Shown here piece after piece: positions 2,763 to 4,702 of a DNA stretch of 48,142 nt (position 1 is its first letter; the number at the start of each line of letters is the position of its first letter). Below the pieces are notes generated by a model. That model had not been told where the DNA came from, did not search any database, and worked only from the letters and a program-made list of their open reading frames with translations. A program made the position numbers and the translations under genes. The DNA lies in NCBI GenBank assembly GCA_001820785.1, contig MHQW01000043.1:24931-73072 (forward strand), in the 5' to 3' direction. Origin of the DNA: Candidatus Sungbacteria bacterium RIFCSPLOWO2_02_FULL_51_17 (lineage in GTDB: Bacteria > Patescibacteriota > Minisyncoccia > Sungbacterales > GWA2-42-14).

Positions 2763-2853
2763 ACGGCTCCTTTCGAGGTTGGTGGTTAGTGAATACTGTC
2801 AATGGACTCGGATACTATAATAGCACATATATGATAAAAATCAAGTGCCCGTG

Positions 2854-2882
2854 TTGATTTGTGGCCAAAAATCATGTAGTAT
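2854..2882 (+). promoter_or_regulatory. Sigma70-type promoter of the tRNA locus
   Basis: TTGATT-17 nt-TAGTAT; predicted start ~2889, immediately before the outer tRNA-like copy at 2892. Confidence 0.55.
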
Positions 2883-2969
2883 GGCGTCATCGCACCCATG
2901 GCTCAATTGGGTCTAAAGCAATGGGATTGCTTTTAGACGGGCTTCTCCAGGTTATGTACTCCTCTTTTT

Positions 2970-3042
2970 GCACCCATAGCTCAGTTGGTAGAGCAGCTCC
3001 CTCTTAAGGAGATTGTCGCAGGTTCGAATCCTGCTGGGTGCA
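2970..3042 (+). tRNA. tRNA-Lys(CTT), CCA not encoded
   Basis: Acceptor GCACCCA/TGGGTGC, D arm GCTC-AGTTGGTA-GAGC, anticodon loop CT-CTT-AA, T arm GCAGG-TTCGAAT-CCTGC. Confidence 0.96.
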
Positions 3043-3090
3043 AAAAGAGGAGTACTGCAATAGGGGCCCTGGAAGAGAGGGCTCCCTCTT

Positions 3091-3120
3091 TCAGCCAGTG
3101 GCTGATCCGCCTCCGGCGGA
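3091..3120. repeat. 30-bp double-hairpin palindromic insert
   Basis: TCAGCCA-G-TGGCTGA followed by TCCGCC-TCC-GGCGGA, placed exactly between CTT and AA of the outer copy's anticodon loop. Confidence 0.7.
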
Positions 3121-3397
3121 AAGGAGATTGTCACTGGATCGCTGCCCAATAGGCAGGAATCCTGCTGGGCGCGCAAAAATCATTTTTATAATAAATACCA
3201 ACATCTATGAAACACCAAGAAAGGTTTGCCAACTCAAAAGATACATTTAAAGACATACAAAAGTTTCATGAGCTTTTCGTGTTATTGCAATCGGGCGGAC
3301 TCGGCGAGTAATACTAAGTTGCCCATGAAGAGGTAGCGAGGCTGGCACCTTCCAGCCCCTAAAAGACATTCGGCGATGGGCGTACGCTCAAATACAT

Positions 3398-4702
3398 ATG
3401 GAAAATTTTGAGAAGGAATACGATAAGCTTGCTCCGCAAAAAATGCGCGCATCGCGCTTGATGGCAGAGTCGGACGATACCGCTGCCCCACCTTCTGATG
3501 CCGGAGCTGCTGCTGCCGAAAAAAATTATTCTGTCTCTTCAGAATTCCAAGAATATGTAAGGGGTCATCCCCCAATACAAAGGGTGTTTTCGCCTGAAAA
3601 TGAGCTGGCAAAAATACGGCGACTACCGAAAAACGAACAACGAGCGGCCCTCATCACCTTCAAAGAATTGCTGGCACGACAGCGGACCGCGTGGGCCGCG
3701 TGTCGCGTGTTTATTGAAAAGAGCATTGAGGCAAATAATGGCATTCCCAAAAAGGAGCTCTTGAATTTGGCAAGGCGGTTTGGAGACCAATACGGTTTTA
3801 CGAACGAACAGCGAAAAACAGCCGAGCGCCTTATTGATGGTTACTATAAGTACCGATACCGGGCGCTCCAGATGAGACGGCGGTTCCCCGATGACAAAAA
3901 GCTCATAAAAAAAATACTAGGAATGGACCCTGAAGAGATCGGGCAAGTAGACATTACGGTCGGACCGATGACCATAGATCTTACAGTAGGCGGGGCTAGT
4001 ATGAAAAAAATATATGAAAAGACGGGGGGCGCACAGGTGTCAGGATTTCAGTATGGAGGATTTGCGTGGCATACGGCCGGCAGAAATCCAATATTTTATA
4101 CCGTCATAAATCAGGACCAAGAAACAAGAGGGGCATTTGACGATCTCACTGGCGAGGAAACCAGAAGACACGAGCATGAACACCAAAAAAATGAACTTTT
4201 TAGAAGCGTGTTTAAGCAAGAAGCTCAACGGGAGGGAACATGGGGCGCGCTTCAACTTGATTTAAAATTTTTAAAATATTATGATGAGAGCGATCCCGAC
4301 ATTACAAAGGCGTTGTTTGAATCATACATGCGCGCTGAAATGACTAACGCTCTTGACTCTGCAAAGGACGAAATAACCGCCACTCTTACTACGATGAGCG
4401 TTTCTGCGCTACAATATAGGTTGGATGATCTTTTTTTTGGAGAACATGGGCCGTGCGATTACCTCGGACCCATGCGTGAGTGGGGTACAAAAGAAAAGAA
4501 TGGCACATATCGAGACCTCGTAGAAAAAATACTGGTCAAAGAATACCGCGCCATCATTGAAAAAGCTGTCGCGTCATATGGCGAGCTCATAAAAACACGA
4601 GCGTACACTTTCCAGGAAGCAACCGCACTTTTGACCGATAAGCCGCTTCCAGAATGGCCAAAGGCCTTACAAAGATTTTTGGAACAAAAAAATGTGAGAT
4701 GA
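3398..4702 (+). CDS. Hypothetical protein with an HExxH (HEHEH) motif
   Basis: 434-aa ORF; RRHEHEHQKN, with a later KDE that may supply a third ligand; no family recognised. Confidence 0.75.
   Translation: MENFEKEYDKLAPQKMRASRLMAESDDTAAPPSDAGAAAAEKNYSVSSEFQEYVRGHPPIQRVFSPENELAKIRRLPKNEQRAALITFKELLARQRTAWAACRVFIEKSIEANNGIPKKELLNLARRFGDQYGFTNEQRKTAERLIDGYYKYRYRALQMRRRFPDDKKLIKKILGMDPEEIGQVDITVGPMTIDLTVGGASMKKIYEKTGGAQVSGFQYGGFAWHTAGRNPIFYTVINQDQETRGAFDDLTGEETRRHEHEHQKNELFRSVFKQEAQREGTWGALQLDLKFLKYYDESDPDITKALFESYMRAEMTNALDSAKDEITATLTTMSVSALQYRLDDLFFGEHGPCDYLGPMREWGTKEKNGTYRDLVEKILVKEYRAIIEKAVASYGELIKTRAYTFQEATALLTDKPLPEWPKALQRFLEQKNVR

What the first reader, a model, noticed from the sequence alone, without database searches (positions are those of the whole stretch)
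2892..3173. Russian-doll tRNA-Lys: an intact tRNA nested in the D-loop of an interrupted copy of itself
Seen directly: an outer tRNA-Lys can be read in order across the locus. Its 5' acceptor and D arm lie at 2892-2910 (17/19 identical to the inner tRNA), the anticodon arm halves at 3081-3090 and 3121-3132 (identical), a drifted T-arm 5' side at 3133-3141, and the 3' end at 3157-3172. Each loop (D, anticodon, T) is interrupted by a self-complementary insert. The D-loop insert (~165 nt) contains a 28-nt hairpin plus a long stem whose tip is the complete tRNA-Lys(CTT). The promoter sits right before the outer copy, suggesting it is the ancestral gene position. This is not a simple attL/attR duplication: both tRNA halves are duplicated and they surround the intact gene. 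Inference: palindromic elements target tRNA loops, and a tRNA-carrying hairpin cassette rescues or replaces the gene; alternatively the inserts are removed at the RNA level.
Basis: partly seen in the sequence, partly recalled or inferred. Interest (0 to 1): 0.85.

Follow-up and report, generated by a model that had tools for sequence, protein, structure and literature searches.

The report
tRNA gene nested in disrupted copy
A working lysine tRNA gene sits on a long stem inside a broken older copy of the same gene, and this design recurs across a group of ultra-small groundwater bacteria, pointing to small structured mobile cassettes that invade tRNA genes while carrying a replacement copy.

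Summary
An intact tRNA-Lys(CTT) (2970-3042) lies inside an outer tRNA-Lys whose pieces run in order from 2892 to 3173, with one self-complementary insert in each of the D, anticodon and T loops. Independent per-run assemblies support both junction sides. It is not a one-off: at least six other tRNA genes of this 1.24-Mb genome and many relatives in the same order have the same design.

Two inserts belong to conserved families:
- **D-loop insert:** "element E", a hairpin plus a second stem. It occurs in 36 of 62 genomes of the order, shows strong covariation, and here carries the inner tRNA inside its second stem.
- **Anticodon-loop insert:** a 30-bp double-hairpin palindrome, found in 25 of 62 genomes and also in frame inside protein genes.

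A relative (G035) has the same Lys cassette as the only interruption of an otherwise intact outer gene, a state with fewer inserts.

In many relatives an 80-aa GIY-YIG nuclease ORF sits between the outer 5' fragment and the inner tRNA.

The window's outer copy is decayed: after in-silico removal of the inserts, 0 of 48 junction variants are called a tRNA. The genome has no EndA or RtcB.

Best reading: a DNA-level invasion that brings its own replacement tRNA. The enzyme that moves it is not shown.

The parts
2892..2910 (+). Outer tRNA-Lys 5' fragment: acceptor 5' strand, D-stem 5' strand, and the D loop up to G18 G19.
   Evidence: Matches the inner gene at 17/19 (family D3). It ends at the GG where element E inserts in relatives.
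2911..2938 (+). H1, the first hairpin of element E. The inner part AAGCAA..TTGCTT is conserved and the outer part of the stem covaries.
   Evidence: Covariance model R1 hits 2910-2986 at 23.5 bits, E = 0.005 and 0.003. The H1 helix is 98.7% paired, and 11 of its 12 pairs show compensatory change across 39 copies.
2939..2955 (+). 5' side of element E stem 2 (GGGC at 2939-2942) plus spacer.
   Evidence: Read. GGGC can pair with GCCC at 3066-3069. The same position encloses a tRNA in L121, L016, L013 and L008.
2956..2969 (+). Left arm: a 14-nt extension of the inner acceptor stem.
   Evidence: Perfect 21-nt inverted repeat I1, 2956-2976 / 3035-3055.
2970..3042 (+). Inner, intact tRNA-Lys(CTT): the working gene.
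   Evidence: ARAGORN. Rfam tRNA, 71.5 bits.
3043..3055 (+). Right arm, complementary to the left arm. The discriminator A3042 also pairs with T2969.
   Evidence: repeat I1.
3056..3069 (+). Spacer plus the 3' side of element E stem 2 (GCCC at 3066-3069).
   Evidence: Read. Compared with E copies that end ..GCCC-N-GGA.
3070..3090 (+). The outer tRNA resumes: TGG (a second copy of the D-loop GG), a drifted D-stem 3' strand, the anticodon-stem 5' strand, and the loop up to T36.
   Evidence: 3081-3090 is 10/10 identical to the inner gene (family D6). Alignment of outer against inner.
3091..3120 (+). 30-bp double-hairpin palindromic element (DH), inserted between anticodon-loop positions 36 and 37.
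   Evidence: One of only two such elements in this genome; the other is in the outer tRNA-Arg anticodon loop. The family occurs in 25 of 62 genomes, and the reversed-pattern control gives 0.
3121..3141 (+). Outer anticodon loop from A37, anticodon-stem 3' strand, variable loop, drifted T-stem 5' strand, and the start of the T loop.
   Evidence: 18/21 against the inner gene (family D1). By my reading, two of the five T-stem pairs are broken.
3142..3156 (+). 15-nt hairpin (5-bp stem, 5-nt loop) inserted in the outer T loop.
   Evidence: Read. It is paired in the minimum-free-energy fold.
3157..3173 (+). Outer T-loop remainder, T-stem 3' strand, acceptor 3' strand (TGGGCGC) and discriminator.
   Evidence: 18/21 against the inner gene (family D2). 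C70 faces A3 of the 5' fragment, a mismatch.
2866..2875 (.). Left copy of a perfect 10-nt direct repeat that brackets the whole composite. The right copy is at 3174-3183. It may be chance.
   Evidence: family D5. The sequence is AT-rich and significance was not established.

Best explanation
The locus is a layered record of DNA-level invasion of a tRNA gene.

**Proposed history (inferred):**
1. A resident tRNA-Lys(CTT) gene was hit in its D loop, after G18 G19. The GG is present on both sides of the insert.
2. The invader was a small structured, non-coding cassette, 'element E': hairpin H1 plus a second stem.
3. The second stem of E holds a complete tRNA-Lys on a 14-bp extension of its acceptor stem.
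4. Because the cassette brings a working gene of the same identity, the hit is not lethal, and the inner gene takes over.
5. The outer copy became redundant. It then picked up a 30-bp double-hairpin palindrome in the anticodon loop (36|37), a hairpin in the T loop, and point changes.

**Shown:**
- The anatomy of the locus.
- The family status and covariation of E and of the double hairpin.
- The recurrence of the design in this genome and this order.
- A relative with the cassette as the only insert.
- The decay of the window's outer copy.

**Inferred:**
- The direction of events (the inner gene is the incomer).
- That matching identity of cargo and target is kept by selection.
- The motor. 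The most likely motor is homing-type repair after cleavage by the small GIY-YIG nucleases, which in relatives sit between an outer 5' fragment and the inner tRNA. In the window locus no such ORF is present.
For: **1. Recurrence in the same genome.**
- Nested or flanked copies occur at Arg-TCT, Thr-CGT and Ser-GCT, Val-GAC and an Asn gene at a contig end, Thr-TGT, and Gln-TTG with a GIY-YIG ORF.
- Fragments of 17 nt or more flank 9 of 33 tRNAs, against 0-2 in the controls.

**2. Inner and outer copies are diverged alleles, not fresh self-copies.**
- The Thr and Ser outer copies keep their own paired acceptor and T stems.
- By my reading, these differ from the inner stems on both sides of 6 and 5 pairs respectively.

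**3. Element E.**
- It occurs in 36 of 62 genomes, with up to 17 copies per genome.
- Cells are 94% paired, against 77% in shuffles. 22 of 24 pairs show compensatory change, and 0 of 500 shuffles reach this.
- Of the 30 best loci, 25 have an intact tRNA within 500 nt. All 25 are co-oriented and none is opposite.
- Three copies in this genome, at different tRNA loci, are 81-91% alike and share a near-identical stem-2 interior.

**4. The Lys cassette.**
- Its 35 nt of non-tRNA arms are 91-94% identical among G003 (family f1) and G016 and G035 (family f4).
- The outer copies it sits in are of different acceptor types.
- In G035 the cassette is the only interruption, and the outer copy is called tRNA-Lys(CTT) in 20 of 20 in-silico junction variants.
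- G001, in the same family as the window's genome, has a plain un-nested tRNA-Lys(CTT).

**5. Same anticodon.**
- The anticodon is the same in all 9 inner/outer pairs that I read where both anticodon loops are present.
- These pairs are: window Lys; own Arg, Thr, Ser and Val; and Lys of G003, G016, G031 and G035.

**6. The window's outer copy is dead.**
- 0 of 48 junction variants are called a tRNA, while the inner gene used as control is called.

**7. GIY-YIG link.**
- Of 62 loci with a full-length small GIY-YIG ORF, 44 have a same-strand tRNA starting -23 to +129 nt from the ORF end.
- In 19 of these the tRNA starts 10 or 11 nt before the ORF end. No locus has an opposite-strand tRNA.
- 25 have a self-fragment of 14 nt or more upstream of the ORF.
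- The 8 genomes of the order with a single GIY-YIG hit have almost no E (0,1,0,0,0,0,0,0) and almost no double hairpin (0,0,0,0,0,0,2,0).
Against: - No mobilising enzyme is shown, and the window locus has no ORF.
- The 80-aa GIY-YIG proteins have only the catalytic domain, unlike characterised homing endonucleases. Their cleavage sites are unknown.
- The correlation between GIY-YIG counts and E or double-hairpin counts is modest (rho 0.36, n = 62). Related genomes are not independent.
- The window's arms are only about 50% like those of the G003/G016/G035 cassette, so the window cassette is not demonstrably the same mobile unit.
- The Thr, Ser and Val outer copies of this genome and the Lys outer copy of G035 are still called tRNAs once the inserts are removed in silico: 53 of 84, 78 of 266, 1376 of 2016 and 20 of 20 junction variants. 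For those loci an RNA-level fate is not excluded.
- No filled/empty polymorphism was seen in the four runs laid.
- No close relative exists among the genomes held; every relative is another genus. The order of events is therefore inferred, not reconstructed.
- The arm pattern of the Lys cassette was found in only 1 of 401 genomes drawn from the class. Any horizontal spread is therefore narrow.
Confidence: 0.6

Rival explanations
1. **RNA-level reading.** The inserts are intervening sequences removed, or tolerated, in the transcript. The outer gene is then also functional, and the inner tRNA is an 'intron-encoded' tRNA released by RNase P and RNase Z.
For: - The insert positions (D loop, anticodon loop, variable loop, T loop) are those seen in archaeal and red-algal multi-intron tRNAs (abstracts of PMC3728597 and PMC9602550, from search listings).
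- E and the hairpins show compensatory change.
- The outer copies of Thr, Ser, Val and of G035 Lys are called tRNAs after in-silico removal of the inserts.
- E sits where tRNAs naturally vary in length, in the variable pockets of the D loop and in the variable loop (established tRNA knowledge, recalled).
Against: - No EndA and no RtcB were found in a genome rated 100% complete.
- The inserts are self-contained hairpins with no exon-intron helix, so there is no bulge-helix-bulge motif.
- Rfam finds no intron or ribozyme family in the window at gathering scores, nor in six nested loci of this genome, the Lys locus among them, at E up to 5.
- The window's outer copy fails as a tRNA after removal (0 of 48 variants), and the Arg outer copy lacks a recognisable 3' end.
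- The same 30-bp palindrome lies inside long open frames as a 10-codon, stop-free insert (12 of 28 copies). That fits retention in RNA, not removal.
- An intact same-anticodon copy accompanies the interrupted one in every pair read.
Confidence: 0.1
2. **Relics of ordinary integrative elements or local duplications.** Site-specific integrases or unequal recombination left tRNA fragments on both sides of the gene. The intervening elements were later deleted, and unrelated palindromic repeats then settled in the fragments. No tRNA-carrying cassette exists.
For: - tRNA fragments left by integration are common in prokaryotes (passages of PMC9897764).
- Some loci here look tandem rather than nested. 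Examples: G026 Asn; Pro-TGG, where the upstream flank is duplicated too; and the tandem partial copies in L038.
Against: - The outer 5' piece ends and the outer 3' piece begins at the same D-loop GG, as one insertion predicts and two independent att relics do not.
- The same junction, followed by the same conserved H1 hairpin, recurs at many tRNA types.
- The arms flanking the inner tRNA are complementary to each other and conserved across families. Integrase relics do not predict this.
- No integrase or element remnant lies between the pieces; the gaps are 59 and 27 nt.
Confidence: 0.12
3. **Functional expression architecture.** H1 and the leader-trailer stem form a processing or stability module for the tRNA precursor, like the processing stems of rRNA operons. 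The outer fragments are exapted leader and trailer.
For: - The arms and H1 are as conserved as the tRNA itself across families and covary.
- The inner tRNA has no obvious promoter of its own inside the insert (one search lists none on the + strand).
Against: - Most tRNAs of the genome lack such stems (58 of 62).
- E also occurs without any tRNA inside it, within dead fragments and in variable loops.
- This reading does not explain why the leader and trailer are halves of a tRNA of the same anticodon.
Confidence: 0.08
4. **Assembly chimera** that joins two tRNA-Lys loci at the conserved tRNA.
For: No single independent contig spans 2995-3013. The genome is scaffolded with N runs, and one other 'fragment' (Leu-CAA on C41) borders an N run and may be a scaffolding duplicate.
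Against: - The 14 nt on each side of the inner tRNA are perfectly complementary.
- Both sides are reproduced with 0 differences in three runs from three studies.
- The same design occurs in many independent assemblies.
Confidence: 0.02

Closest known systems
Rickettsia palindromic elements (RPE) and other prokaryotic MITE- or REP-like repeats. Sources: review PMC10969869 and REP survey PMC3733652, search listings only. The RPE papers are recalled, not read here.
   Same: They are short, non-coding, structured and multi-copy, and are tolerated inside genes. The 30-bp double hairpin is found in long open frames as a stop-free 10-codon insert (12 of 28 copies) and in RNA genes.
   Different: - These elements are much shorter (30 bp and about 45-90 nt).
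- Element E was found essentially only inside tRNA gene copies, at fixed loop positions.
- One form of E carries a whole tRNA gene as cargo.
- No cognate transposase was identified. The three Y1/HUH genes of this genome carry other hairpins on their flanks.
Free-standing GIY-YIG homing endonucleases next to tRNA genes, such as phage T4 SegB (PMC2330249, listing and start of abstract).
   Same: A GIY-YIG gene is embedded among tRNA genes and promotes inheritance of the neighbouring tRNA region. In relatives, a GIY-YIG ORF abuts an intact tRNA in 44 of 62 loci.
   Different: - The ORFs here are about 80 aa, the catalytic domain only.
- They lie inside a disrupted copy of the very tRNA that follows them.
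- No activity is shown.
- The window locus has no ORF at all.
tRNA gene fragments left by integrative elements (attL/attR). Source: passages of PMC9897764; Williams 2002 is cited there.
   Same: A partial tRNA copy lies beside a complete one, in the same orientation.
   Different: - The fragments lie on both sides and partition the gene at one point.
- They are tens of nucleotides from the intact gene, not kilobases.
- There is no integrase.
- The fragments carry conserved hairpin modules.
Archaeal and red-algal disrupted tRNA genes: multiple introns, split and permuted genes. Includes the mobile-element model for Caldiarchaeum (PMC3293823, abstract). PMC3728597 and PMC4390854 were seen in listings only.
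   Same: [quoted passage not shown] A 5' fragment lies beside a complete gene, and a mobile element is proposed as the cause.
   Different: - This is a bacterial lineage without a splicing endonuclease or RtcB.
- There is no bulge-helix-bulge motif.
- Function is kept by a nested spare copy, not by splicing.
Insertion sequences in rRNA genes of CPR bacteria (PMC11270868, passages).
   Same: - They occur in the same broad group of bacteria.
- Many are short ORF-less inserts at the tips or bases of stem-loops.
- The GIY-YIG proteins there lie in inserts that are not introns.
   Different: That paper does not mention tRNA (0 occurrences). In rRNA no spare gene is nested inside the insert.

Membership tests
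Protein-spliced tRNA introns (bulge-helix-bulge / EndA type) | A bulge-helix-bulge motif formed between exon and intron at both splice sites. | tested here: not met
   All three inserts are self-contained hairpins. The fold shows no exon-intron helix at the junctions.
Protein-spliced tRNA introns (bulge-helix-bulge / EndA type) | A splicing endonuclease and an RtcB-type ligase encoded in the genome. | tested here: not met
   PF01974 gives 0 hits and PF01139 gives 0 hits in a genome rated 100% complete. The positive controls responded.
Protein-spliced tRNA introns (bulge-helix-bulge / EndA type) | The joined exons give a functional tRNA. | tested here: not met
   Window outer copy: 0 of 48 in-silico junction variants are called by ARAGORN. 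The feature is met for other loci: Thr, Ser, Val and G035 Lys.
Group I intron in a bacterial tRNA anticodon loop | A group I ribozyme fold of about 200 nt or more in the anticodon loop. | tested here: not met
   The anticodon-loop insert is 30 nt. Rfam finds only tRNA in the window at gathering scores and no intron family at E up to 5 in six nested loci of this genome, the Lys locus among them.
Integrase att-site duplication at a tRNA gene | A direct repeat of the tRNA 3' part at the far end of an integrated element that encodes an integrase. | tested here: not met
   Only 27 nt (3043-3069) separate the inner gene from the resumed outer copy, and there is no ORF for an integrase. A 5' fragment is also present.
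MITE- or REP-like palindromic repeat | A short, non-coding, structured sequence present in many copies per genome and across genomes. | tested here: met
   The double hairpin is in 25 of 62 genomes with up to 14 copies, and the reversed-pattern control gives 0. E is in 36 of 62 genomes with up to 17 copies.
MITE- or REP-like palindromic repeat | Terminal inverted repeats, a target-site duplication, and a cognate transposase. | tested here: inconclusive
   GG is present on both sides of E in the window and in several relatives. No terminal inverted repeats were seen. The Y1/HUH genes have other flanking hairpins. No transposase is linked.
Free-standing GIY-YIG homing endonuclease cassette | A GIY-YIG ORF at the locus. 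| tested here: not met
   No GIY-YIG ORF lies in 2850-3200. The genome's five small GIY-YIG ORFs are elsewhere. The feature is met in relatives and at the tRNA-Gln of this genome.
Free-standing GIY-YIG homing endonuclease cassette | Site-specific cleavage of the insert-free allele, followed by copying of the cassette. | not testable with these tools
   Needs biochemistry or population data. Only indirect support exists: a plain allele in G001 against nested alleles elsewhere.

The most novel reading that the evidence does not exclude
CPR bacteria of this order host a family of tRNA-gene-specific selfish cassettes that solve the 'do not kill the host' problem differently from introns and inteins. 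They do not splice themselves out; they bring a spare copy of the gene they destroy.

On this reading:
- The cassettes spread by homing, driven by minimal GIY-YIG nucleases that cut tRNA genes at extruded loops.
- They continually replace resident tRNA alleles with foreign ones.
- Each invasion leaves a shell of dead tRNA that is then colonised by further loop-seeking palindromes.
Probability: 0.35. Interest if true: 0.9.

Novelty: new variant of a known kind. Interest (0 to 1): 0.8.

Why it matters
**If the reading holds:**
- It shows a third way for a selfish insert to sit in an essential gene, namely to carry a replacement. tRNAs are small enough for this to be cheap.
- It gives a concrete, testable route for horizontal turnover of tRNA genes in organisms with minimal genomes.
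- It extends the known insert load of CPR rRNA genes to their tRNA genes.

**Practical points:**
- tRNA finders report only the inner genes and ignore the shells.
- Assemblers tend to break or scaffold at these loci.
- The 30-bp palindrome adds a 10-residue Ser/Ala/Gly-rich stretch to proteins.

**Conserved modules:** element E and the double hairpin are conserved structured modules that match no Rfam family.

Tried and rejected
- **RNA evidence:** no RNA holder is listed for this stretch. Expression and splicing could not be tested. The four runs laid are DNA contigs.
- **Synteny.**
  - I tried to find the orthologous locus through the neighbouring DUF47 gene.
  - It matched in only 3 of 25 relatives, and in G005 it lies on another contig than that genome's tRNA-Lys(CTT).
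  - All relatives held are other genera, so the order of events could not be reconstructed.
- **HUH/Y1 transposases as the motor.** Three ORFs of 231-243 aa exist. One carries other hairpins on both flanks, one carries others downstream only, and one carries none. None of these resembles E or the double hairpin. No support.
- **Promoter.** The scan lists no + strand site of 9/12 or better before the outer copy.
- **Known RNA families.** Rfam finds nothing but tRNA and antisense-tRNA look-alikes in six nested loci at E up to 5, or around five E copies that lack a nearby tRNA.
- **Wider spread of the Lys cassette.** The arm pattern hit 1 of 401 genomes drawn from the class. G003 and G035 were not in the draw, so this says only 'not found outside the order in that sample'.
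- **Looser fragment threshold.** At 12 nt the background is high: 18 of 33 real, against 6, 10 and 10 in the controls. I rely on the 17-nt threshold.
- **Leu-CAA upstream 'fragment' on C41.** It borders an N run with identical sequence on both sides, so I treat it as a possible scaffolding artefact.
- **Literature.**
  - Nine full-text searches (and the listing in 28) found no description of nested tRNA genes, of element E, or of GIY-YIG ORFs inside duplicated tRNA genes in CPR bacteria.
  - The library lacks most subscription journals, and supplements were closed, so prior description cannot be excluded.
- **Not tried:** structure prediction and complex prediction. No claim here rests on them.
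Full report
**What is there**

The window holds one tRNA by ARAGORN, tRNA-Lys(CTT). Rfam places it at 2970-3042 with 71.5 bits.

Around it, four collinear pieces repeat the same tRNA in order:
- 2892-2910, 17/19 identical.
- 3081-3090, 10/10 identical.
- 3121-3141, 18/21 identical.
- 3157-3177, 18/21 identical.

By reading, 3070-3080 is a drifted D-loop and D-stem 3' part (alignment). The outer copy is therefore cut three times:
- in the D loop after G18 G19, by 2911-3069;
- in the anticodon loop between positions 36 and 37, by 3091-3120;
- in the T loop, by 3142-3156.

The D-loop insert consists of:
- a 28-nt hairpin (2911-2938);
- a short GGGC...GCCC stem (2939-2942 with 3066-3069);
- inside that stem, the complete tRNA, flanked by a perfect inverted repeat that lengthens its acceptor stem by 14 bp.

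The whole stretch folds far better than shuffles (z = -5.66).

Flanking genes:
- a phosphate transporter and a DUF47/PhoU-like gene on the minus strand;
- a 434-aa ORF without a Pfam match on the plus strand.

**Is it real and more than chance?**

- In the window's own genome (1.24 Mb, 49 contigs, rated 100% complete), self-fragments of 17 nt or more flank 9 of 33 non-array tRNAs. Reversed or antisense tRNAs give none, and the flanks of other tRNAs give 0-2.
- Long extensions of the acceptor stem occur at 4 of 62 tRNAs.
- Per-run contigs from three studies reproduce 2600-2995 and 3013-3500 without a single difference.
- These contigs break only within the inner tRNA, whose words are shared by very many organisms. 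The perfect complementarity of the two arms ties the halves together.
- No RNA run was listed.

**It is a recurrent design**

The same genome has further cases:
- **tRNA-Arg(TCT):** nested. Its outer copy carries the same 30-bp double hairpin at 36|37, and the inner gene sits on a 12-bp stem.
- **tRNA-Thr(CGT) and tRNA-Ser(GCT):** nested, with D-loop inserts that start with the same kind of hairpin.
- **tRNA-Val(GAC), tRNA-Thr(TGT) and an Asn gene at a contig end**.
- **tRNA-Gln(TTG):** preceded by a GIY-YIG ORF and an outer 5' fragment.

For Thr and Ser the outer copies have their own fully paired acceptor and T stems, which differ from the inner ones on both sides of several pairs. Inner and outer are therefore diverged alleles rather than fresh self-copies.

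Among loci fetched from relatives, 11 of 63 distinct tRNAs have acceptor-stem extensions of 9 pairs or more. Lys, Ala, Thr and Asn genes show 5' fragments upstream and 3' fragments downstream.

**The inserts are members of families**

*The double hairpin.*
- The anticodon-loop insert is a 30-bp double-hairpin palindrome. With up to 2 mismatches it occurs in 25 of 62 genomes of the order, with up to 14 copies, and never in the reversed-pattern control.
- In this genome the only two copies are the two in outer anticodon loops.
- Elsewhere it lies between genes, in T loops, and inside long open frames. 12 of 28 copies lie in frames of 200 codons or more, mostly read as SAxGGSASGG.

*Element E.*
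- The D-loop hairpin is helix H1 of a module I call element E. It consists of H1, a second stem whose interior varies from a tetraloop to tens of nucleotides, and a closing N-GGA.
- A covariance model built from five copies finds it in 36 of 62 genomes, with up to 17 copies. It also finds a weak hit in the window at 2910-2986.
- Across 39 copies, 94% of cells pair, against 77% in shuffles and 30-46% when partners are slid. 22 of 24 pairs show compensatory change. The alignment is fitted to the model, which favours it.
- E is inserted after the D-loop GG, with GG again at its 3' end, or in the variable loop.
- Of the 30 best loci, 25 have an intact tRNA within 500 nt, always co-oriented.
- Three copies in this genome, at different tRNA loci, share a near-identical interior. 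This argues for recent spread or gene conversion.
- Rfam has no family for E.

**The tRNA as cargo**

- In G039 (Asn), G034 (Val), G003, G016 and G035 (Lys), the intact tRNA lies on a long stem inside stem 2 of E, as in the window.
- The 35 nt of non-tRNA arms of the Lys cassette are 91-94% identical between G003 (the window's family) and G016 and G035 (another family).
- The outer copies are of other acceptor types.
- In G035 the cassette is the sole interruption. Removing it in silico gives a tRNA-Lys(CTT) in 20 of 20 junction variants.
- G001, of the window's family, has a plain tRNA-Lys(CTT).
- The window's own outer copy fails in 0 of 48 variants. It has an A3·C70 mismatch, two broken T-stem pairs and an extra base in the D arm.
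- The series runs from plain gene, to one cassette, to a cassette plus further inserts and decay. This is what a DNA-level invasion followed by neglect predicts.

**The GIY-YIG link**

- In G031, G033, G048 and G022, an 80-aa ORF with only a GIY-YIG catalytic domain lies between the outer 5' half and the inner tRNA-Lys.
- A search of one genome per species with four such proteins returned 68 loci, mostly from MAGs titled as Patescibacteria lineages.
- Of the 62 with a full ORF, 44 have a same-strand tRNA starting -23 to +129 nt from the ORF end. In 19 of these the tRNA starts 10 or 11 nt before the ORF end.
- In the two loci of this kind that I read, the stop codon is the tRNA's own T8 A9 G10.
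- None of the 62 has an opposite-strand tRNA, and 25 show an upstream self-fragment.
- Counts of GIY-YIG hits correlate only modestly with counts of E and of the double hairpin (rho about 0.36). The eight genomes with a single GIY-YIG hit have almost none of either. Related genomes are not independent.
- This makes these nucleases the best candidate motor, but nothing here shows activity, and the window locus has no such ORF.

**What it is not**

- There is no splicing endonuclease and no RtcB.
- There is no bulge-helix-bulge motif and no intron or ribozyme family.
- There is no integrase between the pieces.
- The three HUH/Y1 genes carry other hairpins.
- The RNA-level reading stays open only for the young-looking outer copies.

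**Compared with what is known**

The parts are of known kinds:
- palindromic repeats tolerated inside genes;
- free-standing GIY-YIG genes beside tRNA genes (T4 SegB, PMC2330249);
- tRNA fragments left by mobile elements (PMC9897764, PMC3293823);
- short inserts at stem-loop tips in CPR rRNA genes (PMC11270868, which does not mention tRNA).

I did not find the combination described in nine full-text searches:
- loop-specific structured modules;
- one of which carries a complete tRNA of the same anticodon into the gene it disrupts;
- repeated over many tRNA genes and genomes.

Supplements and most subscription journals were out of reach.

**Verdict**

- I rate it a new variant of known kinds, of high interest, with the mechanism of movement still open.

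Noticed in passing
G000 contigs C13:123-1887 and C28:28689-30555 (outside the window): Two arrays of 15 tRNA genes each.
- All are on one strand, and nearly all carry an encoded CCA end, unlike most other tRNAs of the genome.
- Together they cover most amino acids.
- They include the only ARAGORN-detected Phe, Trp, Gly-GCC/TCC, Ile-GAT and Val-TAC genes.
- E-like modules lie inside both arrays (C13:1437-1504; C28 near 29556).
   Followed up: partly
Loci L135-L190 (GIY-YIG survey), e.g. L139:701-949: In 19 of 44 GIY-YIG/tRNA pairs the tRNA starts 10-11 nt before the ORF end. In the two loci of this kind that I read (L139, L174), the stop codon is the tRNA's own T8 A9 G10. RNase P cleavage of such a transcript would remove the stop codon, which might limit nuclease expression (inference).
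   Followed up: partly
L031, L034, L035, L038, L039, L040, L046, L047, L049 and others (DH loci): The 30-bp double-hairpin palindrome lies inside open frames of 200-650 codons and is read as SAxGGSASGG or PPxADPPxAE. L034, L035 and L040 carry it at the same place in what looks like one gene family.
   Followed up: partly
G000:C41:36642-36854: A small GIY-YIG ORF lies between the end of what looks like smpB and the tmRNA gene (ARAGORN tmRNA at C41:37046-37479). This suggests that tmRNA is also a target of this family.
   Followed up: no
window 2866-2875 and 3174-3183: A perfect 10-nt direct repeat brackets the whole composite. It could be a target-site duplication of the entire unit, or chance in AT-rich sequence.
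   Followed up: no
G000:C42:56041-56286 and flanks; C12:16480-16824 and flanks: The Y1/HUH transposase-like ORF on C42 is flanked on both sides by copies of a 21-nt hairpin of its own. The one on C12 has hairpins downstream only. This resembles REP-associated transposases.
   Followed up: partly
L011:1504-1578, L018:1503-1577, L167: ARAGORN calls 'tRNA-Stop(tta)' here. The L011 and L018 anticodon loops read CTTTTAA, so these are most likely tRNA-Lys(TTT) with the anticodon mis-registered by one base, not suppressors. L167 was not read.
   Followed up: partly
G000:C41:19590-19640 and other N runs: At least one scaffold gap (C41) lies directly beside a nested tRNA gene, with identical sequence on both sides of the gap. 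These repeats probably break assemblies and can create false 'fragments'.
   Followed up: partly
L011 (G002:C18) against L008 (G003:C2): A homologous long hairpin is inserted in the T loop of the outer tRNA-Lys. It holds an intact tRNA-Lys at its tip in G002 but only a short loop in G003. L011 shows three layers of tRNA-Lys copies.
   Followed up: partly
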